From a virus: a stretch of DNA of 64,000 nucleotides. The notes beneath the pieces are model-generated. The model was not told the origin of the DNA. It searched no databases and was given only the letters and a program-made list of their open reading frames with translations. Below, one piece after another: positions 7,290-30,804 of the stretch; position 1 is the stretch's first letter; each line of letters opens with the position of its first letter. Both the position numbers and the translations under genes were made by a program. The stretch covers positions 32,001-96,000 of IMG/VR virus record IMGVR_UViG_3300029922_000029; one strand, given 5' to 3'.

Positions 7290-8642
7290 ATGCAAGTCGT
7301 TAAAGAAATCCCGCAAGGCTACAAAGAATGGAAACCCAAGTACGGCCCGTACTCCGCATCGCGCCTGATCACGGCCAAGTGTCCCCAGCGCTACTTCGGA
7401 CAGTACGTCCGCGGCGATCGCAGTATCGGCTTCTCGCAGGCAGCAAGCCGCGGGTCAGCTATCCATGAGATCTGCGCCAGGATCACGACAGCCAAGACCC
7501 AAGGGGTCAGTCTCACTCCAGTTCTGGTTGACCAGTGGGTAGGAGAGGCTATCGGAAGATACCCAGCCGCTTACGAGCAAGTCGACATGGTGAAGGCCGC
7601 AGCCGGAGCCTACATCGGTAATCCGTCTCGTTACGTGAACGCAACGACGAAGTGCGAAGTGCCTTTGGCATTCCGGTATTTCGTTGAAGAGTTGATGGAC
7701 GATTCGATCAGTCCAAAGGTACTCCTGCTCCAGGAGCCTTATGAGATTGAGGGTAGGCCCAATCCAGCAGCCTTCATCGGCGGCCGGATCGACCAAGTCA
7801 GTATGGACAGGGTGACCAATACGATTACGCTCCTTGATCATAAGAGCACACCCTCTGCGGTTCAGAATGAAGACACGAACTTCCAGATGGGAGTCTACGC
7901 TTGGTTTCTGCACCTCCTCTATCCATCGTTCACAATCAGAACCGTAATCCACTACGCTCACCCTGATCTGAACTTCTACGGAAGTCCAGTTGTGTGGAGC
8001 AAACAGGAGCTCGATGATGTGGGCTCGTACGTCATCACGCGGATTCGGGCGATCGAATCTTTCGAAGAGTTTCAGGCGATCCCTGGAAAACAGTGTGACT
8101 ACTGCCATATGGTGCAGTCGTGCGACATTAATCTTCAAATGGAAGAGCAGCGGGCACGAGGCACGATCGATCTCAACGTTCGATCGGTTCAGGATGCCCA
8201 GCGTATCGCTGAGCAAATGCATGTGGTCGGCAAGATGTACGATGACCTTCAGAAGACCTATAAGGATGGTCTTGAGAAGTTCGGCATCACGGGAACTGGG
8301 GTCGCGATCGATGGTTATGTCTACAAGCACAAGACGATGGATGAAGCCGTGGATTGGGTTGCTACTGACTTCAACGTGAGGGATCAAGCTTTGATTGCGA
8401 TCCAGGCGCTCACCGATCCTCAACTCGAAGGCGAGGCGAGGCAGAAAGCAGAGCTGATGTCCAAGCTTCCGAGTCTTCATGCGGTTCTTGCCCACTATGG
8501 CGTGCAGCCGGATGAATTCAAGAAGTGGGACAGTGACAGCCTGAAGAGTTTGTGGAGGCTCGACAAGCCTCAGCTACTCGAGAGAATCAAGGGGTACATT
8601 GTGAATAAGCGGAACACTAAATTTGGGAGGTACAAGATATGA
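7290..8642 (+). CDS. Cas4/AddB-like PD-(D/E)XK exonuclease
   Basis: YSASRL...KCP..Y, RGSAIHE, GRID, DHKS, QMGVY and C-terminal CDYC.....C give a 1+3 Cys Fe-S staple. Confidence 0.88.
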   Translation: MQVVKEIPQGYKEWKPKYGPYSASRLITAKCPQRYFGQYVRGDRSIGFSQAASRGSAIHEICARITTAKTQGVSLTPVLVDQWVGEAIGRYPAAYEQVDMVKAAAGAYIGNPSRYVNATTKCEVPLAFRYFVEELMDDSISPKVLLLQEPYEIEGRPNPAAFIGGRIDQVSMDRVTNTITLLDHKSTPSAVQNEDTNFQMGVYAWFLHLLYPSFTIRTVIHYAHPDLNFYGSPVVWSKQELDDVGSYVITRIRAIESFEEFQAIPGKQCDYCHMVQSCDINLQMEEQRARGTIDLNVRSVQDAQRIAEQMHVVGKMYDDLQKTYKDGLEKFGITGTGVAIDGYVYKHKTMDEAVDWVATDFNVRDQALIAIQALTDPQLEGEARQKAELMSKLPSLHAVLAHYGVQPDEFKKWDSDSLKSLWRLDKPQLLERIKGYIVNKRNTKFGRYKI

Positions 8643-12521: not shown

Positions 12522-12540
12522 CTAAATGCAAGGAGAGATT

Positions 12541-13995
12541 ATGAATACAGCTACTGAGTCGGAACGTTTCACGGAGCAAGATAGCACATTCACTGGAGGC
12601 GGCGAGAGCCTTTTCAGTCGGTCTGAAGACCTGAACCAGCCCGAATACCAAGCCCGCATCCAGGCACCAGAATCTCCGCAGGAGGGCGACGGCATCCTCT
12701 GGGAGGTCGAGGATCACAAAGCGGCCTACGGGCAGGGCGATCGCTTCAATCGATCCCGGGACGTGCTGAGCGAAGCCACGATCGAGGCATGGGGCCAAGG
12801 CGTCTTTGAATCGATCAGTCAAAGCAGTCTGCGAGAAATCAAAAAATACGTCGATGACTTCCTTGACTTCCTCCACTGCCCGACCTTCAAGAGTTTCGAC
12901 TCGATGGACATGATCCGGATCATGTTCGCCTACCTCGACTATCACGACATGTACTTCTGCTTCTATGACATGCCGGTCCAGATGTGCATGGATCAGCACG
13001 AGTTCACCTACATCAATAAAGCGACTGGCGAGACCCTGAACCCAGAGCATACCGAAGTCTTTCGGGTCGCACGCGGCTGGGACTTTGCTCCGTTCCGAAC
13101 CTTCAAGCAGCGTATCTCTCATCCTTCCGTTCAGGCATTCGGAAAGGGTGAACAAGTCATGCACTCGAAGGAACAAAGACCCATCACAAGAGAGGATATT
13201 CTTAGAGTTCTCTGCGAACCAGTTTATGGAAATTACGATGAAAACTCTTCTCAATCCAGGCAGTCCGGCCTCAAGGAGTATGTTGAAGATCAGGTCGATG
13301 CTTACTTGAGCGAGCAGACTTTCGATGTGCGCAACGACATGGAGAAGGTCCAGGACTTCAACGATGTTAGGCAGGCCATTATCGAAGCGACAGTCGCAGC
13401 TGGGATCGCGGTCTGCGCGTGGATTAAGTCTCCGATGGCTGTCCCGTTTCTGTCCCAGTGGCATCCGGTCTACTATCATATCTTGGGTTGGGACAACGAC
13501 ACCAACAAAGCCTATATCGAACCCGGAACCGGAGGAGAGGCGGTCGTGACCGGCTGGGAAGTCATGACTCTCAAGTCAGTCACAAAGCTCGAGAATATGC
13601 CGGCCGGCAGCTGCCGGAGCTGTCAGCTTACTCTTCACTGCACCCACATTCTGAATGCTAACGCATTGATCTACAAAGTTTGCAGTTGCGGGAAGCCAGT
13701 TCATCCTGATGACCTGGAGCTCGATCTCCACTCAATCCCTGGTCCTTATCGCGGGACCGCAAGGGATGAACGGTGCGTCCCTTATCGGAAGGCGCACCCG
13801 AGTCTGCCTTCGTTTGTCTGTTATCGCTGCGCTGAGAAGCACCTGCTGTTTGAGACCGCCATGCAGGCACCCCCTCAGTACAAATGCTCACGCACAGTCT
13901 GCCCGAATACGGGTTGCGCCCACCATTGGGGTGAGGCAACGCGCCGGCAAGTCCTGAATCAGAGGCGGAGGCAAATGTTGCCAGCCCCATCGTAA
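12541..13995 (+). CDS. large hypothetical protein with Cys-rich multi-zinc-finger C-terminus
   Basis: CRSC....HC, CSCG, CYRC, C...VCPNTGCAHH. Confidence 0.75.
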   Translation: MNTATESERFTEQDSTFTGGGESLFSRSEDLNQPEYQARIQAPESPQEGDGILWEVEDHKAAYGQGDRFNRSRDVLSEATIEAWGQGVFESISQSSLREIKKYVDDFLDFLHCPTFKSFDSMDMIRIMFAYLDYHDMYFCFYDMPVQMCMDQHEFTYINKATGETLNPEHTEVFRVARGWDFAPFRTFKQRISHPSVQAFGKGEQVMHSKEQRPITREDILRVLCEPVYGNYDENSSQSRQSGLKEYVEDQVDAYLSEQTFDVRNDMEKVQDFNDVRQAIIEATVAAGIAVCAWIKSPMAVPFLSQWHPVYYHILGWDNDTNKAYIEPGTGGEAVVTGWEVMTLKSVTKLENMPAGSCRSCQLTLHCTHILNANALIYKVCSCGKPVHPDDLELDLHSIPGPYRGTARDERCVPYRKAHPSLPSFVCYRCAEKHLLFETAMQAPPQYKCSRTVCPNTGCAHHWGEATRRQVLNQRRRQMLPAPS

Positions 13996-14060: not shown

Positions 14061-14543
14061 ATGGACGAGGCAAAATTCAAGAAGCAACTTAGAGCCTCCT
14101 TTCTAGCGCAGACAGCGCTCGCCCAGGGCTACGAGTGGCCGGTCACCGATCCCTTCCGGACTGGCACCGCCGACTTCTTTCTTGCTGTCCGTGGCTGCGT
14201 GATGGCATGCGAGGCCAAGCATATGAAAGAGCTTCCGGTCCGAGAAAACTCGAGAGTCCTCGACCACCCCGTCTCGATGGAGCAGTACAGGTTTCTCAGA
14301 CGTTACCAGGAGAGCGGCTCGCCATCGTTTGTGCTCATCGGTGTTGGTAAGGATGCGGCTGCTTACACCAACCGGATTCAGCTCAATTACACGAAGAAGG
14401 AGCTCATGTTCTTGCCGAGGCTGCAAAGACTCGGGAAAGACCTCTGGGACATGGGACCTTTGATTACGATCATGGCGGATCACAATAAAACCTGGCAGCC
14501 CTATCTCAACCTCCCTGCGGACGCACATGCCAACACCCCCTGA
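14061..14543 (+). CDS. RecU-like Holliday junction resolvase (PD-(D/E)XK)
   Basis: GTADFF...G...ACEAKH...Q..FL...G..SFVLI. Confidence 0.75.
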   Translation: MDEAKFKKQLRASFLAQTALAQGYEWPVTDPFRTGTADFFLAVRGCVMACEAKHMKELPVRENSRVLDHPVSMEQYRFLRRYQESGSPSFVLIGVGKDAAAYTNRIQLNYTKKELMFLPRLQRLGKDLWDMGPLITIMADHNKTWQPYLNLPADAHANTP

Positions 14544-15102
14544 AAAACCTCAGTCAAAACCCCAAGGCTTCTTCTTCGAGGAAGATCCGGACTCGACCGA
14601 GAGTGGCGTCGACTGGTCTGAGCAATCCGCATTTTTCAATAGCGTGATCCAGACCGAGGGTAAACATAAAGCTAAAGAAGGCAGCGAGATGCCGTCCATG
14701 GTTCCGATGGGGATCCAGTCGGAAGCAAGCCTTAAGCGTCTCCAGAATGGTTGGATCGCAGTGGAGTTTGGGAAAGTCAGGAAAGACTACGCGATCCACA
14801 CCATCCCCATCAACCCGCGAGTCGACTTCGGAAACAAGGACGTCTTCGCGCAGACTTGTCGGATCACGATCCTTCTCCTGAACGAGATCGTGCCCTTCGA
14901 TCTTCAAGTGAACGTATTCCCTCCGGATCCGAACTGGTCGGTGAAAGCGGTCAGCTATAAAATCATTGGTGGCGTGGATGCTTGGAACCTCGACCTGGAT
15001 AAACTCGAAGCAGAGGTCATGCCTAAAATCCTCGAGCAGCTCACCCAGTACTGCATGGCCAAAAATACTCAGCGCGGCCCTCAACCGGGTCCACGGCGAT
15101 GA
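14527..15102 (+). CDS. hypothetical protein
   Basis: 191 aa ORF overlapping both neighbours. Confidence 0.7.
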   Translation: MPTPPEKPQSKPQGFFFEEDPDSTESGVDWSEQSAFFNSVIQTEGKHKAKEGSEMPSMVPMGIQSEASLKRLQNGWIAVEFGKVRKDYAIHTIPINPRVDFGNKDVFAQTCRITILLLNEIVPFDLQVNVFPPDPNWSVKAVSYKIIGGVDAWNLDLDKLEAEVMPKILEQLTQYCMAKNTQRGPQPGPRR

Positions 15103-15899
15103 AACTCAGGTCACTGGGGTCCGGTTCCTCCACCTGTCGTCACCCGCTCGTGCCGTCCTGCTGGCTTCTTCAGTCGGCCGGCGCGACTGTGGTGATTGGA
15201 GCTCCTTGGCAGCTGGCAGCTAGGCTTGAAGCGATCGGAATCAGTCTTGACCAGATTGATATGATCCTTCCCCTCTCGCCCCGCGGCGACCAGATCGGTG
15301 GCCTGGAAGAGATTGCTCACTATTTCATGGGCAAGTCGAAGAAACCCTACCTTGTGGCACCCGAGAAGCTGCTTCAGAAAATCAAGGAGCGGATCGAGCC
15401 GGCCTTCCTATTTTACCTGAAGGAACTGTTTCAGGTGAAGGCAGTGTCTCGGATCCAGGTAAAAGAAGAGCATATCTCAGAGACCCTGAGCTTCGTGCCC
15501 AACTACTTGGACCTCAACATCCCTTCCTACGGCATCCGACTCGAGGACGCCAAGATCTTCATCACAGGCGAGACGGCCCTCAATGAAACCTGGCTGTTCA
15601 AGGAAATGGGCTGCAACGCGATCCTACACAGCTGTAATTTATCAGCAGGCATTACGGGTTATCCAGGCCCTCCAAGTCTTGCCGAGCTTCAGACCCTCCC
15701 CGTCTATCTGCAGAACAAACTCTGGCTCTACGGTTACGGCAATGCGTTCGCTGAGCACGAGTCCCAGATTATCCCTATGCTCTTTCTGCCTCAGGGCGCC
15801 GCAGTCTATGACAGCGCGAGGCGTGACAAGATTCTCAACAAAGAGCGTTATTTACGGGAAAACGCAAAGCGTCTTCTGGGTAACGAACGAGAACCCTGA
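15099..15899 (+). CDS. metallo-beta-lactamase-fold protein, Apyc1-like, metal ligands degenerate
   Basis: LGSGS, ID.I...GDQIGGLEE, SYG, TGE, ILHSC and L.EL..LP...Q.K.WL.GYG align with the Apyc1/RNase Z-type MBL layout. HxHxDH is replaced by SPRGDQ. Confidence 0.75.
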   Translation: MKLRSLGSGSSTCRHPLVPSCWLLQSAGATVVIGAPWQLAARLEAIGISLDQIDMILPLSPRGDQIGGLEEIAHYFMGKSKKPYLVAPEKLLQKIKERIEPAFLFYLKELFQVKAVSRIQVKEEHISETLSFVPNYLDLNIPSYGIRLEDAKIFITGETALNETWLFKEMGCNAILHSCNLSAGITGYPGPPSLAELQTLPVYLQNKLWLYGYGNAFAEHESQIIPMLFLPQGAAVYDSARRDKILNKERYLRENAKRLLGNEREP

Positions 15900-15931
15900 G
15901 TCCCGACGCTAATGCCCAAGAGTCCCAAGAG

Positions 15932-15966
15932 TTGACAGGGAAGTAATTGCCGAGTAATCTCGGCAC
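15932..15966 (+). promoter_or_regulatory. sigma70-type promoter (leaderless) with overlapping palindrome
   Basis: TTGACA-N17-TAATCT-N6-ATG. The inverted repeat TGCCGAG-TAAT-CTCGGCA covers the -10. Confidence 0.75.
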
Positions 15967-16254
15967 ATGAAGAAGAACAAGGCGCAATGCCAACGAGTCC
16001 ACGCAAAGAAACGGGCACTGGAAAGGTATGACCTAGACCTCAATCGAGACGCCCTCGAGGAGATCGTCAGCCGCATCCAAAACGGGGTCGGCATTAAGAT
16101 GGTGCTCAAACAAAGCCTCAGGATCTCCCACTACGAGATGACGGTTCAGGAGAAACTGGTGCGAGTCGTTTATGACCGGTCTCGCAAGACAGTCGTCACC
16201 TTTCTGCCCCTGATTCCTGCCACCGATATTCAGCACGACCCCGTGGATTGGTGA
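15967..16254 (+). CDS. small basic protein, DUF4258/RelE(BECR)-like
   Basis: HAKKRALERY...RVVYD....VVTF pattern. Confidence 0.55.
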   Translation: MKKNKAQCQRVHAKKRALERYDLDLNRDALEEIVSRIQNGVGIKMVLKQSLRISHYEMTVQEKLVRVVYDRSRKTVVTFLPLIPATDIQHDPVDW

Positions 16255-16255
16255 A

Positions 16256-16283
16256 TCAAAAAGTCGGGATTATCTGGCATAAG
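16256..16283 (+). promoter_or_regulatory. bipartite phage promoter-like motif copy 3 (TCAA-N16-GGCATAAG)
   Basis: Intergenic; AGGAG RBS and ATG16302 follow. Confidence 0.7.
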
Positions 16284-16301
16284 AAAGATAGGAGAAAACT
16301 T

Positions 16302-16733
16302 ATGAAAACAGCTGAGAAGATTGTGAAGGGGAGCTATTGGGCTACCGACAGTGGAGATTGCGCTCGAATCGATGCGGATGATTATCCCACCGAAGACTCG
16401 ATTGTGGGTCGTATTTATTCACGTCGACTGAATAAGTGGCGCATAAGTCCGTCCTCATGGCGGAGCGATGGGGAGTACTATAATGGCCCTGGGACCTTGA
16501 CTGATAATAAGTTGCTCAAGCCTTGGACCGGTCCTCTGCCTTGGGCAGAGAAAAAATCAGAACCAAAACCCCGCATGCTGGCCTACTTGGTCAACGTGAA
16601 GGTGAAGAACACGACTCGCCGTCGGTGGTCTCTGAGATTCTATAAAGAAACCGACATGGTCGGAATTGACAACGACTTCGTGAAACGCGCCCCCTGGCTC
16701 GATGAACCCTTTAACCCGACTGGACAACCATGA
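16302..16733 (+). CDS. hypothetical protein
   Basis: RBS-supported start at 16302. Confidence 0.7.
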   Translation: MKTAEKIVKGSYWATDSGDCARIDADDYPTEDSIVGRIYSRRLNKWRISPSSWRSDGEYYNGPGTLTDNKLLKPWTGPLPWAEKKSEPKPRMLAYLVNVKVKNTTRRRWSLRFYKETDMVGIDNDFVKRAPWLDEPFNPTGQP

Positions 16734-17356
16734 AACTCATCACTCTGATTCCCTTTCTTTCACTCCTTCTGCTGTCTACTGGCTTCGCTCATCATGCCCC
16801 GGCCCCATTGCCGAGCTCAACGCCTGCTGTCGTTGCAGCCCTCCCAAGTCCCGCTCCGACCGCCACCACCCACGTGGACCCGCTCTCTCCAACGATCACT
16901 CTCGATTGTGATTCGACTTGTCTACCCAACGAGGTGGCCCAGCTACCGGCGCTGCAAGCCAAGATGAATGAGGTTTTGAACTCGGATTGCCTATCTGCTT
17001 ACTTCCTTACTCCTCATCGCCGGATCGATAATAGGGACGACCTCACGCCCGAGCAGGTATTGTTGAAGCTCAGGCAGCCCTCCCATCTCACGCTCAACTA
17101 TTTCTACAAGAGCGGGACCAAAGAAGAAGGCTACGAGTCGGCCGTCGACTTCTCCGTTATTCACATGAATCGAGCCTATACGGCTACGTGGACGTTATGC
17201 GAGGTGACATCGCTAGGTCTTCATGAGATGACCCATACCAAGCAATTCTGGCATCCGGGTGGATTCAATCAAGCGAAGAAAGATTACTTCACGGTTCCCT
17301 ATCAAGCCAATAATGCAACCGAAGGAAGGGACAATATGTCTGCGTGCTGCCAGTGA
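16730..17356 (+). CDS. secreted zincin-like metallopeptidase
   Basis: Signal peptide MKLITLIPFLSLLLLSTGFA, Pro/Thr linker, HEMTH....H motif, paired Cys. Confidence 0.7.
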   Translation: MKLITLIPFLSLLLLSTGFAHHAPAPLPSSTPAVVAALPSPAPTATTHVDPLSPTITLDCDSTCLPNEVAQLPALQAKMNEVLNSDCLSAYFLTPHRRIDNRDDLTPEQVLLKLRQPSHLTLNYFYKSGTKEEGYESAVDFSVIHMNRAYTATWTLCEVTSLGLHEMTHTKQFWHPGGFNQAKKDYFTVPYQANNATEGRDNMSACCQ

Positions 17357-17987
17357 TCAACATCCCACAGCCCAGACAGGACAAGGTCCTCACCGACCTC
17401 GACGGGAATCGTTATATTTGGGAGGCCGATGCCAAAGAAACATTCGCCGATCTGACCCACCGCCTGAACAAAGCGGAAGAGGTCATTCAGTATTTCGTCG
17501 ATCGGGCTACCGACTTCAACCATCCAGAAGGTTGGATCCAGAGCAAAAAGACTCTTGCTCGGATGCAGTTTGCCCTCACTGTTGTTCAGACCGGGAAGGA
17601 ACCACCGCCGGAAGCCCCAACCCGCCCAGAACAGCCACACAACACTCCGTCATCTCACTACGAACGACGTCCACTCTAACGCAAGGAAGCCAAATGATCA
17701 CCCTTCTCCTCGCTCTCGCTTCTGCCCCTCAGTTCGAACATCCTCACCCCGGTCACGAACCCGGTCCATCTATAGGCCATGGATCCTGCATCAAGGAACA
17801 CCCTGCGGCTGATTCGGATCGCGGAGTCACGGATATGCCGTATCTGATTGACCACCAAGAAGTCGAAGCGGTGGCGAGTCCATTGCCTGGGCAGATCAAA
17901 AAGAAGCAGAAGTACGCCTCTCACTTTCATCACAGTTATCCTCACTGCCTCGACTCTTGTGGTAATTGGATTGCGGGGTGTAGATAA

Positions 17988-18512
17988 ATGATTATTCCGC
18001 TCGATGTCCAAGAACAGAGACCTATGGTTGAGCTTCCCCTCCGAGGTGTAGATCTCAGAGCCTTTCTGCTTCGCGTAGAGTTCGCATTGATCGTCCAGGC
18101 ACTCGAACGAACGAGCAACCACAAGACTCATGCCGCCGAGATTCTTCACATCAAACGTTCCACTTTGATAGAAAAGATGCGGCGTTTGGGATTACCTTTG
18201 TGCGTGAAGACTCGCCAGACTCCGGACACCGGAAGTCTCAAAGACAGGGCAAATGCGCATACAAAACGAGTTCAAGCTAAGAAAAAAAAGAGAGCGCGGC
18301 TAAAACCTAAATTAGAAATACAAAAAGAAGAAATCATCCATCGTGTCATGGGACTAATGGGATGGGACGCCGATAGGGCTGCTGTTTGGTACCGCACCTC
18401 TAACCCAAACTTTGGGGGCGCATCAGCTGATCATCTTGTTCAAATGAATCGCGGCCGCAAAGTCTTAGCCTTTATTGAATCAGCAGAGAAAGAAAGTAAG
18501 CCAGCCGCCTGA
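17988..18512 (+). CDS. Fis-type HTH fused to Xre/MbcA-type antitoxin C-terminal domain
   Basis: E..LIVQALERTSNHKTHAAEILHIKRSTLIEKMRR is a Fis/NtrC HTH; A.VWYRTSNPNFGGASADHL is the MbcA-like part. Confidence 0.75.
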   Translation: MIIPLDVQEQRPMVELPLRGVDLRAFLLRVEFALIVQALERTSNHKTHAAEILHIKRSTLIEKMRRLGLPLCVKTRQTPDTGSLKDRANAHTKRVQAKKKKRARLKPKLEIQKEEIIHRVMGLMGWDADRAAVWYRTSNPNFGGASADHLVQMNRGRKVLAFIESAEKESKPAA

Positions 18513-19645
18513 ATCCGCTATGAAGTAGAATCGTCATCCTTTCAAACTACAAACACCACCGGAACCCCACCATGAAAAAACTGATTGTGCTGTTTTCGGC
18601 CATCTTGCTCAGCCTGCTCTATTACACCTTCACGTTGACGGAGTCCTTGTCAAACAGTGAATCTCAGGAGAACAGTAAACAAGCTACCATCGACGACCTC
18701 TCGAAATGGCTTGCCGAATCGCGACTTCAAACGATCCAAGCTGAAATCGAAATCAAAAAGAACAAGCTCATCACGGAAGCAGAATGCTCCATCAGGCTTC
18801 TTGAGGTTGCGAAGAAGGCCGAGCCACCTCAAAATGATGAATCCGTAACGGATCCGCAAGTTGTTTGGACTTCGGCTTATGGAACTCGGGAGACTTCGGG
18901 GACATCTGTCAGTGATCGATATGAAAAGGAGCAGGCAAATGAGTAAAATAGGTAAACCGATCCGATCGAGACTGAATCAGGTTGAGCGAGGAGTTTACGA
19001 AAAAAATCTTTCAATGGGAAGTATGAGAAGCGCTAAGGAAGATGCAGAAATCATTCTAGAGTTGGATGACGCCCTAATCATCATGACGAAGCGTTACGAA
19101 GACCAGCTTTCATGCTGGCAAGTCAGCGAGCACGAATTCATCACGAAACGTGAAGCAGGTTATCTGGCGAAAATAGCCGAACTTGAGAAAAGACCGGCCA
19201 CAGGGCCTCGTGAGTGGTCAATAACGGAACAGTACATCATCGACGGCCCAGATCTGATTGAAGGCGAAGTGGTTACGGTCGTAGAAGTCTTGGAAGGAAA
19301 ATAGTATGGATAGCAGTGGAAAAATTCATCATCTCACAGAAGAAGAATCAGCAGCAACCAAGCTTCGGTATGACGCCGAGACGGCGGCAGGAGAGAAGCA
19401 CGAGATGACTCCCATCACGGAGAAGCTGGCTCGATTCATGGCTTCACGGAGCAAACTCTTTCGGGAGACGTGGGGTAGGAAGTTCTCTCGTGGGCTCACG
19501 CCAGTCGAGAAGAATGGGCTACAGACGATGTTGTTCGAGTTTCTCCACAAGGAGAAGGACGCGCAACTGAAGAAGTTGGGTGATATCCCCATGCAGCGTC
19601 ATCAAGCAGCCCAGATTGTTATGGCCCCAGAAGGAGAGCGAAGTC

Positions 19646-20026
19646 ATGAAAGAAGTATCGCAGCCGAACAAATCCTTGGAGAGCGAATCCGCGGGCAACG
19701 AGTCGAAGACATGCCTGACGGAAGCTGAACTCAAACTCATCGACAGGGCATGGAAGTCGGGTCAATTCCAGAATTATGTGCAAGGGCCTGCGAACGCCAC
19801 GATGCTTGTAGCAAAGATGGTAAAAGAAATTAGGCGTCTGCGGATAAAGTGCGGGGAAAGCCGGATGATTATGGGTTACTTGGTCCCTTGGGATACCTGT
19901 AGCATCTGCGGAAACAAGGCAGAATCGAAGGAGGACCTTTGTGGTCATCTTAGGGTCAACAGAGATCAGGTACACCCCGATCCACTTCGGCCACTGCAAA
20001 AGGTGCCGGAAGATCCGAACGTTTAA
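19646..20026 (+). CDS. hypothetical protein carrying a prohead-protease-like CxxC...CxH motif
   Basis: AAGGAG RBS; MGYLVPWDTCSICGNKAESKEDLCGHLR. Confidence 0.7.
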   Translation: MKEVSQPNKSLESESAGNESKTCLTEAELKLIDRAWKSGQFQNYVQGPANATMLVAKMVKEIRRLRIKCGESRMIMGYLVPWDTCSICGNKAESKEDLCGHLRVNRDQVHPDPLRPLQKVPEDPNV

Positions 20027-20335
20027 GTGTACTTTCTCACTGCCATTCGTTATGTATTGGTGCAGTCACTGCCGATTAGGTGGGTCGGCCACAACCTTGA
20101 GAGAATGGAGTAAGAAATGCAGGTCACGCAAATGAATCTGATCTTCGATGTTTTCTTTCTGGCAAGTCCTCTCATCTTGTTGGGCATAGGCATCTTCCGC
20201 TACCTCGAGCACGGGTGGGGTGCCTGCTGGTTGGAATTTCTGTTTGCACTCTTTCTGTTGTGTTTTGTGGTAAATTCGGTGCGGGAAATGGGCTGGTTCC
20301 CGGCGAGTGGGTATTAAGCTGATGACGGCGAAAGG

Positions 20336-20593
20336 TTGTTGATGGCAGCACATACCGTTCAGTTCATTGTCTACTTTGATGATTCCAAGAAGCGTCGCAA
20401 TCTTTGCTGGCCGGGAACAAAGGAGAAGCTCCCTATTCCATCCTGCGAGTTCTGTCACCGGGAACCACCCGAGGTAAAACGGTTCTTGATCTTAGAGGGG
20501 GTATCTCTGTGTGCGGAGTGTGTGGAGCTCGATCTGAAGAGGATGCGGGAGACCGAAGAGCGTTCTGAACGCCAGAGAGGGATAGAGAAATGA
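20336..20593 (+). CDS. ClpX C4-type zinc-finger protein
   Basis: CEFCHREPPEVKRFLILEGVSLCAECVEL resembles the ClpX ZBD consensus CSFCGK...EV.KLI.G..V.IC.ECV.L. Confidence 0.75.
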   Translation: MLMAAHTVQFIVYFDDSKKRRNLCWPGTKEKLPIPSCEFCHREPPEVKRFLILEGVSLCAECVELDLKRMRETEERSERQRGIEK

Positions 20594-21000
20594 GCCACTA
20601 CTGCGGCCACGGATTCATCAAGGCTTGCCAGAAATGCTTCGACGAGAAAATGGGCGTTGCCCAAGACAGGATCAAGACCCTCGAGAAAGCTCTCCACGAA
20701 CTCTGTGAGCTCAAGATCGTCAAGGATGTGCAGGGTGACGTGCCCTGGTATCGGGAGCGTAAGGGGCCGGCATGGGCGAGTGCTTTTGCTTGCTTTCCGG
20801 AGTACGCCAAGGAGGAGGCTCTGAATGGAGCAGAAACTTCGTAAAAACGTAGGAGATGTATTGCACCTCGTGGTATCAGCACTGACCAAAGCTAAAATCA
20901 CACAAGATGACTACAACTTTGACAGGTACAGCACACTCCTTAAGGCCAGGCTTCTCACGCAAGCTGAAATTAATGATTGTATGGAGTACCTGGAGCCTTC

Positions 21001-21333
21001 ATGAAAACCGTCATCAAGAGCAAAAATCTCAGTTTCCAAGAAGCAGTGAGTGCCTGGAAAACCGACAAGCGCAGGTTCAGGCGAAAGGACGATGAGTACT
21101 GGCATGAGATGCACGAAGGAAAGTTGACCCGTGGCGAAGGCGGCAACGGGATCCGAGGACTCACTGTAGATGATGCTCTGGCTCAAGATTGGGAGCTCGA
21201 GCAGATCTATAGGCAGTGCAGTGCCGAGGAAATCATTGAGGCCATGCTCATCTCTGTCCGTCAAACCGCTAACCATCGTCTGGGCCCTATGGAGCATCTG
21301 AACAATGCTCTGATTGAGCTCGGGCTCCTCTAG
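21001..21333 (+). CDS. DUF2829/Tad2-like domain protein
   Basis: LSFQEAV...K..KRRFRRK...DALAQDWEL. Confidence 0.6.
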   Translation: MKTVIKSKNLSFQEAVSAWKTDKRRFRRKDDEYWHEMHEGKLTRGEGGNGIRGLTVDDALAQDWELEQIYRQCSAEEIIEAMLISVRQTANHRLGPMEHLNNALIELGLL

Positions 21334-21731
21334 GAGTTATCGTATGTACAACGGTCCCCTGAAAAAGACGCCGCCTGGATTTGGTCTGAGTCTATTCGTC
21401 TTGATCCTGAGTGTAGGTTTTGTTACATCAGGCAGTATGCTTCTCTATATTTCATACAAACTAATTCGCGCCGCAGGAGGTCATCCATGAAGAAGGTCCA
21501 CGTAAAACAAGTCCCTGAAGCCGAAGTCCCCGTTGAGATCCTGGCCTCCTCGATTGTCCAGGTCGCCGCCGGCATGAAGCGGATCAATGAATCCCGGCTG
21601 ACTCGTAAGGCACTCGTTGTGCTCCTCGTTCATGATACGGGCTTGGGCCACGGAGCCGTATCCACTGTTCTCGATAGTCTCGACTCACTCGAGGCTACGT
21701 ACCTCAAACCCCTGAAGAAGTAACTGAAGAT

Positions 21732-21995
21732 TTGTCCGGTGCTTTCCCGGGCAATCATGGCGGTGGGTCGTAAGGGTCGAAGTGCGGTAAAGTCCAAACT
21801 AGATTCCTGAACTCACCGCCTGAATTTTACAAAGATTGTCGCGGCGCTGGCTCTGTTTTACCGCGCGGTACCTAAACGGACCTAGGTACCCAGGGCGCGA
21901 CATGATGGCGGTGGGCGTAGAGGCCGGGTTTGATCCCCACCTCTCGTGGCAATATGGTCTGGCGCGGCCAGGCTGATGAAGCCGACCCACCGCCT
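21732..21995 (+). ncRNA. putative structured RNA cluster (four consecutive stem-loops)
   Basis: Gap of about 270 nt in an otherwise gene-dense region. Two stems are closed by GGCGGTGGG/CYCACCGCC, and there are nested helices. Confidence 0.45.
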
Positions 21996-22019
21996 TATTT
22001 TAAGTTTTTCTGGTATAGG
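21992..22019 (+). promoter_or_regulatory. bipartite phage promoter-like motif copy 4 (weak upstream box, GCCT-N16-GGTATAGG)
   Basis: 6 nt before ATG22026. Confidence 0.5.
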
Positions 22020-22025
22020 TTCAGT

Positions 22026-22529
22026 ATGGCAACTGCAATCAAAATGACATCCGCCGATATCGAGCTCGCCCTCACACATGCCGGTGCGCCGCTTTGCAGG
22101 CGGCGTTGGGTCGTGGTGCCCAATGTGAGTTGGGGATGGGGCCTTCGATATGAGGCCGATCTGATTGCGCTCAGCAAGACCGGCAACGCTACTGAGGTAG
22201 AAATCAAAGTCAGCAAGTACGATCTCCGTGCCGATGCCGCTAAGGATAAGTGGAAAGATGGGATTTCAAAAAAGATCTCTAGGTTTTTCTATGCCGTACC
22301 TTCTGAACTAGAGCAAGAAGCTCTAGCCGTCATTCCGCCCGACTGCGGGCTCTATGTCGTTACTGAATCTAAGTCAGGTCTCCGGACAGCTAAGATAGTT
22401 AGACCAGCAAAGGAGCGCGCTGGATCCCGAAAGCCAGATGCCGAAGAGATTCTGAAGCTGCACCATCTGGCCTGCATGCGGTATTGGGATCTCAGGAGTC
22501 GGCAGAACACAAATCGAGCTCAATCGTGA
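22026..22529 (+). CDS. MmcB-like PD-(D/E)XK nuclease
   Basis: EADLIAL...EVEIKVSKYDLRAD..K.KW...FFYAVP...GL. Confidence 0.75.
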   Translation: MATAIKMTSADIELALTHAGAPLCRRRWVVVPNVSWGWGLRYEADLIALSKTGNATEVEIKVSKYDLRADAAKDKWKDGISKKISRFFYAVPSELEQEALAVIPPDCGLYVVTESKSGLRTAKIVRPAKERAGSRKPDAEEILKLHHLACMRYWDLRSRQNTNRAQS

Positions 22530-23442
22530 AAGGTCTAGTTGGACATGAGTTATACAGAATTGAAAGTACGGTTTCCGGTGGGTCGAAAGGATTATTCTTG
22601 CGAGTGGTGCGCGCAAACCATTCCTAAAGCCGAAAAACATTTTCACCGCACCTATATTTGGGAGAATGAATTCAATGATGGTCGTATGCATTTGGAGTGC
22701 GAAAGGGCTATGCACGAGGTGCCACGTGAGCATCTAGACGAGGGTTGGACTCCAGGTGATTATGCGCGCGGATCAGTTGACAGTATTTGAAAAAGAAAGG
22801 ACATCATGCCCAAGAAAACCAAAGTAGTAGCGAAGAGCATCAAAGTCTATCCGGCGAACATAAGGAAAGCATTTCAGAAGGAGATGGATCAACAAGCGAG
22901 GTCAGTAGCGCTCCATCAATCCAAGTCCAGATCAAACCGACCAAAGCCCCATCGGTTTGTAGTGATGCTCAACCAAGAACTCCTGGATGCGCAGATTCAA
23001 GAGGTGCTCCGCTTGAAGGAGAAACACGCCCTTCGGGGGAAGAGCCCAGTGGTCAAGGAAGTTTTTGTTGATTCCGATGATCTGTTCTATGGGATTCTCG
23101 GTGCATTGAAAGATATGCCATTTGCGCTTCCGATCAAAGAGCGGGCTGCATTCATAAAACTGAGAGTTGCTAAGGTTTTGGAGGAATCGGGTATTCGGGT
23201 AGGCCTAACATGAAATCAAAGCTAACCGTTCGTAGAGAACTCAACCGCCTCGTGAGAAGTGAGAAGAACATCAAGGATCCAGTCGAAGCATCTAAAGCAT
23301 CTATGGTCTTAGCTCTTCGATGGGTGATGGATGATGGCACTCACGGCACTTTGCAGCCCAGCAGAATCATCGAGATGATGGAGCAGGTATCCAAGTTGCA
23401 CACCAACAGAAAAGGAATCACGAATGGGTTTTGACGTGACAC

Positions 23443-23784
23443 ATGACTGACTGGGTGATAACACTCCCCAAGGCTATCGAATGGTCTGATTATGAGAAAG
23501 AGTTCGCAGCAGTCAAGGACTGGAGCCAGGTGATGAATTATCGCCTGGCTCGTTTCCCCAAGGGCTTACAGTCTAACGACCGGTGCTTTGTCTGCTACCG
23601 CGGTAAGATCAGAGGTTGGATGCGGATCGTGAGCTGGAAGCTTCATTGGTATGACATGGTTTGCTCCACCACCGGAGCGCCCTGGCCGAAGGGTTTTTAT
23701 CTTCACCGATCAGGCCCGTTCACTTATGTAGACGGACCCGAAATGCGGGGATTTCAGGGTATAAGGAGACTGAAGCATGAGTAA
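23443..23784 (+). CDS. hypothetical protein, possibly PUA/ASCH/EVE-like
   Basis: DRCFVCYRGKIRG and C-terminal RGFQGIR motif. Confidence 0.4.
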   Translation: MTDWVITLPKAIEWSDYEKEFAAVKDWSQVMNYRLARFPKGLQSNDRCFVCYRGKIRGWMRIVSWKLHWYDMVCSTTGAPWPKGFYLHRSGPFTYVDGPEMRGFQGIRRLKHE

Positions 23785-24014
23785 GACCTACACAATCAAG
23801 CCTTTCACTCTTGAAGGTTTCCGCGCCGTAATGAAACAAGTGATGGAGGCCGGTCTGCAAGCAGAGCCGACCCTGTGCTTCAGATGTAACCGTCCCTTCG
23901 ATGGAAGACTTCCCAGGAATCATGCCCTAGTGAAAGCTTTCTGTGCGCTCTGCCTAGCGGAGCCCGATATCGAGGATTTCCAACGAGCAGTCGCTTATTT
24001 AAACGGAGTTAAAA

Positions 24015-24362
24015 ATGAAGATCGATGAAGCAGCAAAGACAGGCTTACCTCTCAGAAGAAGCGGCTGGAGTGATTGGTTGACCGAACAAACCTGTGCAGG
24101 AACCATGGGAGGAGACAGTGTTCAGGCCCTCTGTTTTCCTGATCGAGTCAATCCTCATTTGGATTTTGAGGATCTTACGGCAGACGACTGGGAAGTCCAG
24201 CACAAGCCCATGAACCTGATTGAGGCTGTGCAGAGTGGTAAGCCCTTCAAAAGATCAGGCTGGGTAGAATTCATGGACTTCGCGAAGAAGTCTCCTGCTC
24301 AGGCTCAAGGCTTTTACCGCGAAGACCTTCTGGCGACTGACTACATTCTGGAGGACTCGTGA
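24015..24362 (+). CDS. tandem DUF2829/Tad2-like domain protein
   Basis: Two repeats: EAAKTGLPLRRSGW...EDLTADDWEV and EAVQSGKPFKRSGW...EDLLATDYIL. Confidence 0.7.
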   Translation: MKIDEAAKTGLPLRRSGWSDWLTEQTCAGTMGGDSVQALCFPDRVNPHLDFEDLTADDWEVQHKPMNLIEAVQSGKPFKRSGWVEFMDFAKKSPAQAQGFYREDLLATDYILEDS

Positions 24363-24742
24363 TCCAAAGCGAAACCGCACCATTCATCAGAGGCTCAACC
24401 GAAATCATCGTCACCGGCGGCCGCGACTATAAAGATGCTAAAAGAGTGCAAGAAGTCCTGACCCTCTTCTATCCAAAAACCATCATCCAAGGCGGAGCCA
24501 AGGGTGCCGATCATCTCGCCCGAATGTTTGCGTCCGAGTTCAATCTCAAGTGCGTCAGCTGGCCGGCCGACTGGGACCAGTGGGGCAAGGCAGCGGGCCC
24601 GAGGCGAAACAAGGAGATGATCTTGGCTCATCCGAACGCAATTGTTGTAGCTTTTCCTGGTGGGGCCGGAACGGAGAACTGTGTGGAGTTTGCGATCAGG
24701 CAGAAGAGATTGGTTCTCAGGGTGGAGCCGCAATGGACTTAA
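24359..24742 (+). CDS. SLOG-family (DUF2493/YspA-like) protein
   Basis: IIVTGGRDY, IIQGGAKGAD, PADW...GKAAGPRRN.EM, VAFPGG.GT. Confidence 0.88.
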   Translation: MIQSETAPFIRGSTEIIVTGGRDYKDAKRVQEVLTLFYPKTIIQGGAKGADHLARMFASEFNLKCVSWPADWDQWGKAAGPRRNKEMILAHPNAIVVAFPGGAGTENCVEFAIRQKRLVLRVEPQWT

Positions 24743-26854
24743 AACCCCACCCTCTCGACAACACCCTGATTCAGTACATCAACGCCGCAGAGGATGCTGG
24801 GTATGAGTGGGAGATCAGCGGTGGTCGCATGAGCAAGGAATCGTCCGTGGTCTTGCATCACGCTATCGATAGGACGGTATATAGCACGGACTCACAACCC
24901 AACTACGCATTCCACAGCGCCCTCAAGAAAGCAGGAGTTATCCGTGAGTAGGGTGGGTTGGATCGAAGCAACCCTTTTGTTGTTGTTTTTGGGTGTCATC
25001 GCTTATTTCACTATGCAATTGGTCATACAATAGGAGAGCCGAATGAGTCAGGAAACCCTCGTAGAAAAGCACCTTCGCGGCGCCACAACCGAAGAAGAAG
25101 ACGAAAGACTCGAGGCCGACCCGAAAGCCTGGAAAGACGAGCTGACCAAGATCATCATCGATTGTGACCGCGAGATGCAGACTGCTAAGGCTAGATCGAT
25201 CGAAGAAAAAACACCGGCCGCGAAGCTCGCCTACGAACAAGTGAAGATCATCTGTATCGCGAAGAAGCAGAAGGCTGTCGAGGTTTCGCGTGAGCTGAAG
25301 GAACAGCTACGGGGGCCGAGTCACACTGAGAGTACGAGCGTCCTGTCACAGAAATCTCAAATGGTTATAGAGTTGCAGGCGATCCGGGCTATCTTGGAAA
25401 GAATGGAGCAACGAGCATGAGAAAATGGGGACAGAAAAAGTATCGACCAGGAGCGGTATGGCAGGCAAAAGACTACGATACTTCGCCGCAGCCCGTACAC
25501 TTTCAGATTATTGCACCTGGCGAATTTCCGAATGAACGGAAGTGCACCATCATCCACAAGTACTCGCATCACGAAAAGCATAACACGGAGGGTGTCTACA
25601 CGCTCAGGCATCTGAAGAAGCACTTTGTTTGCATCAAAGAAGGAAAATGATATGAGAGACCTGAAGATCAACCCAAGCAATTTTGAAATCAGCCTCAGGG
25701 AAGAGAACCTCGAAAAGGCCGTCGACCGAACTGAAATCAGTGCTGCTACTGTCTGCATGATTTTTGGCGATCAAAGCGTAGAGCAATGTATAGACGCGAA
25801 AGAGGCCGCAGCCATCGGGAAGTGGTTCTCTGCTTTGGCGCTTCGCCTGAAGCAATTCGATAAACGGGCCAACAAAATCGCACCTCAGCGTGAATCTTCG
25901 GAGTGCTAACCATGAAAATTATAGTCGGTCACATCTGTTTGATGATTTTCCTCATGAACGTATAGTTGCTTCTCCACCCCAGAATGAAGGTAGATTTTGT
26001 TGCTGCGCTTATCTGGGGCGTCTGTCTGGGTATTTTTTCTGGAGCAGCTCATCTGCTGCTTTTTGGGTAAGCCGTGAAAAAACGAATCAAAGTCTTCGTG
26101 GGTAGAAGTAAGGACTCCAACTGGGAGCTCGCTGAAAAGATTGGGATCGATCTCAATACGGCAGCGGTTAGTGAATTCTCTCACCTCGCAACCGAAGTGG
26201 AGCTCATAGTCGATGTAGACACTGTATCAGGCAGACATGAGATCGTAGCCTGTGATGGTAAATTCCTCGGAGACGAATTGGTTAGTTCCGGAGAAGTCGA
26301 GGTATGCGAATGAAACTTTTATTTGCTGCCGTCTTTCTTCTGATGGTGGGGTGCGCTTTTACGGTCATTGGCTACAGACACGTTGTGTCAGGCTTTCCGA
26401 AAATACAGAAGCCCAAATGACCAACGAACAGCAAGTCCAGTACCTCGCGAAAGAGTACGGGTTCAATGAGGTGATGCAAGCGGTCTTGTTGAAGGCATTG
26501 GACCACGCCTTCAACCAGGGTATGATGCACGTCCGCGTGGACCGTCAATACGTGAGCGTGCACGGGACTGATGGATGCCTGAACTGTGAGACCGGCCGTA
26601 TCACGACCTATGCCCATTCGAGGTGGTGTGTGGAGTGTTTACATGAGAAGGAGACGAGAAGATGCAAAAAATAAACCAGCTCAAGATGGCTAAGGCATCC
26701 GCTTCGATCGGATACGCGATCGGAGTCATGGAGGGTTTAGCTGATCTCTGTAGGGGGTTGAATAAGAGACAGAAGGAATGCCTCGACGATGCTTGCGAAG
26801 GGCTACAATCCATTGATCTGTGCGAGATTATGGGAATCACGGGGGAGAGGCCCG

Positions 26855-27466
26855 ATGCATAAGATCTGGCTGACCTCTGACCAGCACTTTGGACATCGGA
26901 ACGTTATCACCTACTGTTCTCGGCCCTTCAAAGATGTGGATCACATGAAAGAAGAGCTCGTGAGTCGGTTCAACGCAAAGGTGAGCCATGATGACATGAC
27001 TTGGCACCTGGGCGACTTCTCCATGCATCCGCGCGAGCTAGATGTGCTGCGAAGACTGAATGGTTGGCATGCCCTAGTTGTTGGAAATCATGATGGCTGC
27101 CATCCGGTTCAGTGTAAGAGCGATGAAAAGCTGAAGCGACTGACGCAAGTCTACCTGGATGCTGGTTTCGCTGAGGTATCTACCGAAGATAAACTAGTGA
27201 TGACGGATCACCCGTTTGAAACCATTAAACTCCATCACATGCCGTACAGTGGTGACCACGGAGAGAAGGAGCGATTCACGCAGTACAGGCCCCAAGATGA
27301 CGGACTCTGGCTACTTCACGGGCACGTCCATACGGAATGGAAAGTTCGTGGTAAGCAGATTAATATCGGTGTTGACCAGTGGGGCTATGCGCCAGTAGCA
27401 CTCGACACGATCAAAGAGATCGTACGTAACAAGGAGAATAAAAATGACGGTCACGCTGACAAATGA
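26855..27466 (+). CDS. calcineurin-like metallophosphoesterase
   Basis: SDQHFGH, LGDF, GNHD, HGHVH, NIGVD. Confidence 0.9.
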   Translation: MHKIWLTSDQHFGHRNVITYCSRPFKDVDHMKEELVSRFNAKVSHDDMTWHLGDFSMHPRELDVLRRLNGWHALVVGNHDGCHPVQCKSDEKLKRLTQVYLDAGFAEVSTEDKLVMTDHPFETIKLHHMPYSGDHGEKERFTQYRPQDDGLWLLHGHVHTEWKVRGKQINIGVDQWGYAPVALDTIKEIVRNKENKNDGHADK

Positions 27467-29409: not shown

Positions 29410-29835
29410 CCCCAGCAGAAACAAAAGCCTACAACAAAGGCTTAGAAGCCGCAGCCAAGCTGGCGGGTTACCAAGTCTTTGAGGTGCGGGATGAAAAGAA
29501 CCGACTGCACACATGGCAAGTCGGAGAGGCTATCGCGAAGCTGATCCGAGCCAAGAAAAAGAAAGTCAAATGACTCTCTACCAACTGTGGGAGCAAATTG
29601 GAACTATCGGGCTAAGGGACTCTGATCCCGGCTGCTTCAAGTTCTACCAGCTTCAGGAGCGTAGAGCCTACGCCGGCGACCACCAGCCTGTGCTAGATTT
29701 GATCAAGTACCTACTGAAGGAGCGTGACCATTACAGGGACTTATTCCTGGATAAAAAACTCAGCGAGCCGTTGCCACCGATAGTTTTGTGTAAGTGTTGC
29801 GCTCCAGCCGTGCAACTAGAAGGACCAAAAACAAA

Positions 29836-30760: not shown

Positions 30761-30766
30761 TAAATC

Positions 30767-30804
30767 AAACGCTGACTTCTCTTCGGAGGGTCAGCGTTTT
30801 TTTA
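30767..30804. terminator. terminator between convergent gene blocks
   Basis: AAACGCTGAC...GTCAGCGTTTTTTT. Confidence 0.75.

What the first reader, a model, noticed from the sequence alone, without database searches (positions are those of the whole stretch)
15099..15899. Apyc1-like protein with most metal ligands replaced: possible cyclic-nucleotide sponge
The scaffold follows anti-Pycsar Apyc1-type MBL phosphodiesterases along its length (LGSGS, D.IGGLEE.A, KP.L, SYG, I.H.C.L, L.EL..LP...Q.K..L..YG). However, HxHxDH reads SPRGDQ, the bridging Asp reads TGE, and the later His positions read GPP and YGY. Selective loss of ligands in an intact, translationally coupled ORF suggests a pseudo-enzyme. 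It might sequester cCMP/cUMP/cAMP, or heterodimerise with a host MBL hydrolase.
Basis: partly seen in the sequence, partly recalled or inferred. Interest (0 to 1): 0.7.

Follow-up and report, generated by a model that had tools for sequence, protein, structure and literature searches.

The report
Metal-free Apyc1-like phage core protein
A large uncultured peat phage carries a well-conserved copy of the anti-Pycsar enzyme Apyc1 that has lost every metal-binding and catalytic residue and gained a new tail, so it is a working protein with a new, still unknown, non-enzymatic job rather than a broken gene.

Summary

This is not decay. About 40 relatives form one clade (SH-aLRT 98) that all lack the ligands, and dN/dS is 0.03.

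The gene is a core gene of a lineage of uncultured phages (complete genomes 175-182 kb). It is always the last gene of a conserved nuclease-rich block and often overlaps the upstream 191-aa gene (ATGA). In this window it borders a 17-kb accessory insert.

'Pseudo-enzyme' is supported. 'Cyclic-nucleotide sponge' is untested and disfavoured, because the former active-site positions evolve like average sites (0.56 against 0.51 background) while constraint has moved to the C-terminal third and the tail. No second MBL-fold gene exists in these phages.

My best reading (about 0.45) is a non-catalytic binding or scaffold protein. The sponge reading gets about 0.15.

Another first-stage note of this scan flagged this same stretch of the same genome; the scan has no note of it on other DNA.

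The parts
15099..15899 (+). Ligand-less Apyc1-like gene (266 aa, P0001)
   Evidence: ORF. Pfam PF23023 scores 22 bits, below the 50-bit cut-off. Best PDB hits are Apyc1. AF2 model has pLDDT 91.8.
15198..15200 (+). G34, at the position of the motif I Asp
   Evidence: Asp in 100% of 121 canonical proteins; Gly in 88% of the clade.
15276..15293 (+). SPRGDQ in place of HxHxDH (residues 60-65)
   Evidence: These align with SBSphiJ H64, H66, D68 and H69. In the clade, positions 60, 62 and 64 vary, and position 65 is Q in 37 of 40 members.
15399..15413 (+). Site of the deleted nucleotide-binding loop (would hold Y112 of SBSphiJ Apyc1)
   Evidence: Gap in 40 of 40 clade members at the Y112 column.
15507..15509 (+). 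L137, at the position of the motif III His
15570..15572 (+). E158, at the position of the bridging Asp (variable in the clade)
15669..15671 (+). P191, at the position of the motif V His. The surrounding loop varies in length and is deleted in some members.
15732..15734 (+). G212, at the position of the last ligand His
   Evidence: His in 98% of canonical proteins; Gly in 95% of the clade.
15810..15896 (+). Clade-specific C-terminal extension (residues 238-266: a short strand, then helix 248-264). R241 and K248 are invariant.
   Evidence: Absent from canonical Apyc1. Lies outside the part aligned to Apyc1 structures, which is model 1-238. Most conserved segment of the protein, 0.71.
14527..15102 (+). 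Upstream 191-aa gene of unknown fold, overlapping this gene's start by ATGA
   Evidence: An orthologue lies directly upstream in 8 of 8 loci with upstream sequence. The reciprocal search returns the same contigs. The junction is -4 or +1 nt in 5 of 9 loci.
14061..14543 (+). Conserved PD-(D/E)XK (RecU/resolvase-like) nuclease gene of the same block
   Evidence: phrog_2165 and phrog_843. D38, E51 and K53 are invariant.
12526..13995 (+). Conserved 489-aa gene with a Cys/His-rich C-terminal domain, same block
7290..8642 (+). PD-(D/E)XK exonuclease gene, start of the syntenic block
   Evidence: PF12705 E = 3e-16; phrog_69; synteny.
15900..32822 (.). About 17 kb of accessory DNA specific to this phage, between the gene and the convergent core block
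   Evidence: No orthologues in the relatives. In L003 the two core blocks abut directly.
32823..33545 (-). First gene of the conserved convergent minus-strand block (71-75% identity in relatives)

Best explanation
The gene encodes a folded, selectively maintained, non-catalytic descendant of an Apyc1-type cyclic-nucleotide phosphodiesterase.

Shown:
- It keeps the Apyc1 fold.
- It has no residues to hold the two catalytic metal ions, and it lacks the loop that completes the nucleotide pocket. It therefore cannot hydrolyse cNMPs by the Apyc1 mechanism.
- The loss happened once, at the base of a clade found only on contigs of large uncultured phages.
- The gene has since been kept as a syntenic core gene under strong purifying selection.
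- Constraint has moved away from the old active site to the C-terminal third and a new C-terminal amphipathic helix.

Inferred: it now works by binding rather than by catalysis. It uses the MBL scaffold plus the new helix as an interaction surface, most likely for a protein partner within the conserved nuclease-rich early/middle module. The best candidate partner is the often translationally coupled 191-aa product. A nucleic acid is a less likely partner.
For: Fold and descent:
- AF2 model pLDDT 91.8.
- The tree places the clade, together with a small partly degenerate sister group, opposite the canonical enzymes (SH-aLRT 98, 95 and 99).

Loss of catalysis:
- All nine ligand positions are replaced, and the Y112 loop is deleted in 40 of 40 members.
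- The H64A/H66A/H69A triple mutant is inactive, and E74 and Y112 are required (PMC9117128).
- Homologues with shortened loops cleave weakly or not at all (PMC11370490).

Selection:
- L005 against L013 has 112 synonymous and 24 non-synonymous differences, dN/dS 0.03.
- L018 against L021 has 4 and 0.
- Deeper pairs have pS saturated (0.72-0.93) with pN of only 0.18-0.44.

Core status:
- Same position in all related loci, at the end of the exonuclease ... 489-aa, PD-(D/E)XK, 191-aa block and before a convergent conserved block.
- Identity to this gene in relatives (41-49%) exceeds that of most block neighbours (25-41%).

Shift of constraint:
- Former ligand positions score 0.56 against a 0.51 background in the clade. 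In canonical enzymes the figures are 1.00 against 0.43.
- The tail scores 0.71 and residues 197-237 score 0.63, against 0.49 for residues 1-196.

Coupling: ATGA overlap; junction of -4 or +1 nt in 5 of 9 loci.
Against: - No interaction was tested, because the complex predictor was closed.
- The coupled neighbour has no recognisable fold or family, so it gives no functional clue.
- In 4 of 9 loci, 103-330 nt separate the two genes.
- Co-occurrence with the neighbour does not discriminate, because every core gene of the lineage shares that distribution.
- Several conserved polar or aromatic residues flank the lost ligands (Q65, N135, Y136, H177, Y203, Q205, Y211, Y213). They could line a remodelled small-molecule pocket rather than fill a collapsed one.
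- I could not map residues in 3D, because the model's coordinates are not exposed.
- The protein is not basic overall (core -7, tail +3). That gives no support for nucleic-acid binding.
Confidence: 0.45

Rival explanations
1. Cyclic-nucleotide sponge. The metal-free scaffold still binds cCMP, cUMP or cAMP (or another nucleotide signal) in a remodelled pocket. It sequesters the signal without cleaving it and so blocks Pycsar-type immunity.
For: - It descends from an anti-Pycsar/cNMP phosphodiesterase family.
- Conserved Gln, Tyr, Asn and His residues sit next to the lost ligands.
- The QIGGLEE helix at the dimer contact is retained.
- The gene borders an accessory region holding a sub-threshold Tad2-like gene and a SLOG-family gene.
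- Sponges are an established phage strategy (PMC12043709, listed).
Against: - In Apyc1 the phosphate is held by the two Zn ions and the pocket is completed by the trans loop. Both are gone.
- Positions 60, 62, 64, 70, 158 and 191 vary freely in the clade, and the motif V loop is deleted in several members.
- It is a syntenic core gene of 266 aa, unlike the small, patchily distributed known sponges.
- The strongest constraint lies on the new tail, not on the old pocket.
Confidence: 0.15
2. Enzyme with a relocated or different active site. Clade-specific conserved residues (for example C13-R14-H15, E123-E124-H125, H177, or the Tyr/Gln cluster) form a new catalytic or metal site, so the protein is not a pseudo-enzyme.
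For: - New conserved motifs are absent from canonical Apyc1: CRHPL after the first strand, EEH.SE, and Y203/Q205.
- Very low dN/dS.
- Migration of catalytic residues in apparent pseudo-enzymes is a recognised phenomenon (abstract of PMC10211241, listed).
Against: - C13, R14, H15 and H125 are only about 60-70% conserved.
- EEH lies at the start of the strand whose far end carries motif III, so it should be on the opposite edge of the sheet from the old site. This is an inference from the secondary structure.
- No known family matches apart from Apyc1/MBL.
Confidence: 0.1
3. Subunit poison or regulator of a host MBL-fold phosphodiesterase or RNase Z-type enzyme. The dead subunit heterodimerises through the retained dimer interface and alters host cNMP turnover or RNA processing.
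For: - Apyc1 active sites are completed in trans by the partner protomer.
- The interface helix motif IGGLEE is conserved in both the clade and canonical proteins.
- Dead/active MBL pairs are established elsewhere: CPSF100/CPSF73 and the N-terminal half of ELAC2 (background knowledge).
Against: - No active MBL-fold partner is encoded in this phage or in three complete relatives.
- Identity to any canonical Apyc1 is only about 25-30%, which makes a preserved heterodimer interface unlikely.
- The host is unknown, and no clade member occurs in about 185,000 prokaryote species genomes.
Confidence: 0.06
4. Decaying remnant of an Apyc1 gene with no function.
For: Complete loss of catalytic residues.
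Against: - Intact ORF in all relatives.
- dN/dS of 0.03, and 41-63% amino-acid identity maintained while synonymous sites are saturated.
- Fixed syntenic position.
- Confident fold.
Confidence: 0.01

Closest known systems
Apyc1 (anti-Pycsar protein 1; Pfam PF23023; structures 7u2r, 7u2s, 7t28; SBSphiJ gp147)
   Same: - Same length of core.
- Shared GTGS, IGGLEE, PSYG, ILH, LP and W.Y.Y scaffold motifs.
- Phage-encoded.
- 24-28% identity to the Bacillus phage enzymes.
   Different: - All nine metal-ligand positions are replaced.
- The nucleotide-binding loop with Y112 is deleted.
- E74 is not conserved in the clade.
- A conserved C-terminal helix has been added.
- It scores below Pfam's gathering threshold (22 against 50 bits).
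- It is a syntenic core gene of a lineage of large uncultured phages.
[not shown]
   Different: They are more distant than Apyc1. All retain the binuclear metal site. RNase Z has a flexible arm that is absent here.
Non-catalytic MBL-fold subunits (CPSF100, Integrator Int9, N-terminal half of ELAC2)
   Same: MBL fold with the metal ligands lost but the protein retained. They function by binding, not catalysis. This comparison rests on background knowledge; it is an analogy, not shown homology.
   Different: Those proteins pair with an active MBL paralogue in the same genome or the same chain. No such partner exists in these phages. They are also beta-CASP or RNase Z lineages, not Apyc1.
Phage nucleotide sponges (Tad1, Tad2, Acb2, Acb4)
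   Different: Their folds are unrelated. They are small proteins and typically accessory genes. Binding by this protein is untested, and its old pocket is not conserved.

Membership tests
Apyc1 (PF23023) | MBL fold closest to solved Apyc1 structures | tested here: met
   [not shown]
Apyc1 (PF23023) | Score above Pfam's curated gathering threshold | tested here: not met
   22.2 bits against a cut-off of 50, E = 1.1e-4, match over 6-220 of the protein. The precomputed tables still tag the cluster with PF23023.
Apyc1 (PF23023) | HxHxDH motif coordinating two Zn ions | tested here: not met
   Reads SPRGDQ. The clade has S/N/D/G, variable, D/E/S/A and Q at these positions. The motif is 100% conserved in 121 canonical representatives.
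Apyc1 (PF23023) | Remaining ligands (motif I Asp, motif III His, bridging Asp, motif V His, C-terminal His) | tested here: not met
   They read G34, L137, E158, P191 and G212.
Apyc1 (PF23023) | Trans-acting catalytic residues E74 and Y112 on the Apyc1-specific nucleotide-binding loop | tested here: not met
   The E74 equivalent (E70) is present here but in only 18 of 40 clade members. The Y112 loop is deleted in 40 of 40. The requirement comes from PMC9117128.
Apyc1 (PF23023) | Common descent with canonical Apyc1-like proteins | tested here: met
   The profile search finds canonical Apyc1-like proteins as the next-best hits. The tree places the clade plus its sister group opposite the canonical proteins.
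Apyc1 (PF23023) | Homodimer | not testable with these tools
The only indirect sign is conservation of the IGGLEE interface helix.
Apyc1 (PF23023) | Hydrolysis of cCMP, cUMP, cAMP and cGMP, and protection from Pycsar | not testable with these tools
   This needs biochemistry. The sequence predicts no activity by the known mechanism.
Phage nucleotide sponge (functional class) | Conserved ligand pocket | tested here: inconclusive
   The old active-site positions are as variable as background (0.56 against 0.51), but neighbouring Q, Y, N and H residues are conserved. No 3D mapping was possible.
Phage nucleotide sponge (functional class) | Accessory, patchily distributed anti-defence gene | tested here: not met
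   It is a syntenic core gene in all related contigs. It does border an accessory hot-spot.
Dead/active MBL pair (CPSF100-type) | An active MBL-fold paralogue encoded alongside | tested here: not met
   No PF12706, PF00753 or second PF23023 match in G000 or in four relatives, three of them 100% complete.

The most novel reading that the evidence does not exclude
A catalytically dead Apyc1 scaffold has been turned into a metal-free binder of cyclic mononucleotides. It would be the first enzyme-derived phage sponge and a dedicated anti-Pycsar sponge, fixed as a core gene in a whole lineage of large environmental phages.
Probability: 0.15. Interest if true: 0.8.

Novelty: new variant of a known kind. 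Interest (0 to 1): 0.5.

Why it matters
Apyc1 is the founding anti-Pycsar enzyme. The published surveys I could read state that its homologues all retain the catalytic site (PMC11370490).

This finding is a monophyletic, strongly constrained, phage-only clade that has discarded the whole metal centre and the substrate loop, yet is kept as a core gene. It shows that the Apyc1 scaffold has been re-used for something other than cNMP hydrolysis.

There is a practical consequence. Homology-based anti-defence annotation (PF23023 hits below threshold, precomputed tags) would wrongly label these genes as anti-Pycsar nucleases.

Scientifically, it is a clean and easily testable case of pseudo-enzyme evolution in a virus. 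The protein is small and soluble-looking and comes with a confident model. About 40 natural variants are available for comparison, and binding and plating assays already exist for the parent enzyme.

Tried and rejected
- **No family hit for this protein.** PHROGs gave nothing.
- **Other neighbours.** The 489-aa and 160-aa neighbours have no PDB sequence relatives.
- **No prokaryote genome copy.** The genome-contig scan found no clade member in prokaryote species genomes.
- **Sister group context.** P0046 has no locus in viral contigs, so the context of the sister group is unknown.
- **Sequencing runs.** No RNA holder is listed. Contigs from three further peat runs are identical over the parts they cover, so they give no population variants.
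- **Transcription signals.** Promoter and terminator scans did not exceed the shuffles. A TTGACA at about 15932 has a poor -10 box and was not called.
- **Tree.** The careful tree search did not finish. The quick IQ-TREE tree with SH-aLRT support was used.
- **Literature.** Searches found no description of a ligand-less Apyc1 clade.
- **Nucleic-acid binding from charge.** Considered and not supported: core -7, tail +3.

Full report
**What is there.**
The ORF at 15099-15899 (+) encodes 266 aa. Its ATG overlaps the stop of the upstream 191-aa ORF as ATGA.

**It is a true Apyc1 relative.**
- Pfam gives one weak, near-full-length match to Anti-Pycsar_Apyc1 (PF23023): 22.2 bits against a cut-off of 50, residues 6-220. 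PHROGs gives nothing.
- Against PDB sequences, the only significant hits are the three Apyc1 entries: 7u2r (E = 8.8e-11), 7t28 and 7u2s.
- An AlphaFold2 model built on 29 relatives is confident (pLDDT 91.8, pTM 0.89).
- The model's four best Foldseek hits are the Apyc1 chains (TM 0.72-0.85).
- In GenBank phages, the only tblastn hits are the genuine Apyc1 genes of Bacillus SPO1-like phages, including SBSphiJ, at 24-28% identity.
- The ESM Atlas neighbours are all Apyc1/MBL clusters.

**All catalytic equipment is gone.**
I fetched SBSphiJ Apyc1 (L024:286-1056) and confirmed that its numbering matches the paper: H64, H66, D68, H69, E74, Y112. According to Hobbs et al. (PMC9117128), Apyc1 is a homodimer whose HxHxDH motif holds two Zn ions. 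The H64A/H66A/H69A mutant is inactive. E74 and Y112 of the opposing protomer are also required.

In this protein the corresponding positions read as follows:
- S60, R62, D64 and Q65 for HxHxDH.
- G34 for the motif I Asp.
- L137 for the motif III His.
- E158 for the bridging Asp.
- P191 for the motif V His.
- G212 for the last His.

The loop carrying Y112 is deleted. Tesson et al. (PMC11370490) report that all Apyc1 homologues they examined retain the catalytic site. They also report that homologues with a shortened or lengthened nucleotide-binding loop cleave cNMPs weakly or not at all.

**It is a clade, not an accident.**
- The word-indexed search found 28 clusters at 42-63% identity, plus one canonical protein at 30%.
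- The exhaustive profile search of 1.84 billion representatives shows a sharp gap. Seventeen representatives score 193 bits or more and match through the C-terminal tail. Three intermediates score 127-135 bits. Canonical proteins score 105 bits or less.
- Tabulating the ligand columns gives a binary picture. The 121 canonical representatives keep D / HxHxDH / H / D / H / H at 98-100%. All 42 clade members have lost them and carry a tail of 19-47 residues.
- A quick IQ-TREE tree puts the 39 full-length clade members on one side of a branch (SH-aLRT 98). A partly degenerate sister group (P0045-P0047, 95) lies next to them. Together they separate from the canonical proteins at 99.
- A few independent degenerations (P0132/P0141, P0064, P0172) sit inside the canonical group.

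**It is under strong purifying selection.**
- For ten viral loci and twelve metagenome loci, synonymous sites are saturated in all deep pairs (pS 0.72-0.93), while pN is 0.18-0.44.
- One unsaturated pair, L005 against L013 (93% identity), has 112 synonymous and 24 non-synonymous differences: dS 1.53, dN 0.042, dN/dS 0.03.
- L018 against L021 has 4 synonymous and 0 non-synonymous differences.

**Where the constraint lies.**
- In the clade, the nine former ligand positions are no more conserved than the background (0.56 against 0.51). In canonical proteins the figures are 1.00 against 0.43.
- Three of the nine have become fixed as new residues (G34, Q65, G212). The rest drift.
- The most conserved parts are residues 197-237 (0.63) and the clade-specific tail 238-258 (0.71). 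W209, P226, R241 and K248 are invariant.
- The tail lies outside the part of the model that aligns with Apyc1 structures (model 1-238).
- The tail is a predicted helix (248-264) with a 7-residue hydrophobic spacing (I245, L252, L259; read directly from the sequence).
- The protein is not basic overall (core -7, tail +3).

**Genomic setting.**
- The window is bases 32001-96000 of a 108.7-kb IMG/VR virus record, estimated 70% complete. This gene is its only Apyc1-like match.
- The window encodes a family A DNA polymerase, a major head protein and a prohead protease.
- The nearest cultured phages are very distant: Salmonella phage Arash and Vibrio phages of about 187 kb, at 28% identity on one structural protein. 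None of them matched this gene.
- Relatives of the gene lie on viral contigs of 10.8-182 kb. Three of them are rated 100% complete at 175-182 kb.
- No relative was found in about 185,000 prokaryote species genomes.
- The sequence recurs, unchanged, in several peat metagenome runs.

**Synteny.**
- In every locus with upstream sequence, the gene is preceded by the same block. The order is: a PD-(D/E)XK exonuclease (7290-8642), two unknown genes (11422-11970, 11980-12489), a 489-aa Cys/His-rich protein, a 160-aa PD-(D/E)XK resolvase-like protein with invariant D38/E51/K53, and the 191-aa protein.
- Downstream, nothing is conserved for 0-4 kb. Then a convergent minus-strand core block begins (orthologues of 32823-33545 at 71-75% identity, then 33966-35969, and so on).
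- In L003 the two blocks abut directly. In this window about 17 kb of accessory genes lie between them.
- That insert holds a sub-threshold Tad2-like gene, a SLOG-family gene, an MmcB-like gene and a DUF1643 gene.
- So the gene is a core gene that happens to border an accessory hot-spot. It is not a member of a variable island.
- Its identity to relatives (41-49%) is higher than that of most of its block neighbours (25-41%) and similar to that of the exonuclease (41-51%).
- The junction with the 191-aa gene is -4 or +1 nt in 5 of 9 loci, and 103-330 nt in the rest.
- Searching with the 191-aa family returns the same contigs. This is expected for any core gene of the lineage.

**Interpretation.**
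- *Shown:* the protein is a folded, selected, Apyc1-derived protein that cannot carry out Apyc1 chemistry.
- *Inferred:* it acts by binding. The surface that selection protects is the C-terminal third plus the new helix. Given its fixed place at the end of a nuclease-rich module and its frequent coupling to the 191-aa gene, a protein partner from that module is the most likely ligand (about 0.45).
- *Sponge (about 0.15):* this idea remains possible, because conserved Q, Y, N and H residues flank the lost ligands. It is disfavoured by four things: the loss of both phosphate-binding metals and the substrate loop, the free drift of the old site, deletion of the motif V loop in several members, and the gene's core status.
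- *New active site (about 0.10) and poisoning of a host MBL enzyme (about 0.06):* neither can be excluded. No second MBL-fold gene exists in this phage or in three complete relatives.
- *Decay:* excluded.

**Limits.**
- The model's coordinates are not exposed.
- The host is unknown.
- No RNA data were found.
- The neighbour's fold could not be assigned.

**Novelty.**
I found no paper describing an Apyc1 clade without the catalytic site. I rate it a new variant of a known kind, of moderate interest. It is a clean, testable viral pseudo-enzyme. It is also a warning that homology-based anti-defence annotation would mislabel it as an anti-Pycsar nuclease.

Noticed in passing
window 15900-32822: About 17 kb of plus-strand accessory genes, absent from all relatives, sit between two conserved core blocks. 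They include a Fis-type HTH protein (17988-18512; PF02954, E = 2e-11), an MmcB-like protein (21930-22529), a sub-threshold Tad2-like protein (24015-24362; 22.4 bits against a cut-off of 25) overlapping a SLOG/YAcAr gene (24359-24742), and a DUF1643 protein (28798-29409).
   Followed up: partly
window 12526-13995: A conserved 489-aa core protein has no family assignment. Its C-terminal 130 residues carry about ten invariant Cys/His residues (C363, H371, C372, C386, C388, C417, C454, C459, C464, H467). There is a weak hit to the Phage_zn_bind_2 domain.
   Followed up: partly
window 14527-15102: The 191-aa protein has a disordered N-terminal 65 residues containing an invariant FFF..D acidic motif. 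After that comes a confident alpha/beta domain (residues 66-182, pLDDT above 90) with no clear structural relative. It is conserved in all relatives.
   Followed up: yes
proteins P0045, P0046, P0047 (no loci): This is the sister group of the ligand-less clade. P0046 still has the motif I Asp, two of the three motif II His residues and the motif III His. P0045 and P0047 have lost them all. All three carry a C-terminal extension that begins FDS/FDD but lack the RRDK..KERFIRE motif. They may record the order of events.
   Followed up: partly
proteins P0132/P0141, P0064, P0172 (no loci): Ligand losses have also occurred independently inside the canonical Apyc1-like group. So degeneration of this scaffold has happened more than once.
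   Followed up: no
window 4308-5663: A 451-aa protein matches Gp3-like recombination directionality factor-like (PF18897, E = 3e-11) within the same plus-strand early region.
   Followed up: no
window 33966-35969 (-): A 667-aa core protein has no Pfam or PHROG match. It is the only link to cultured phages: 28% identity to a 'structural protein' of Salmonella phage Arash and to Vibrio phages of about 187 kb.
   Followed up: partly
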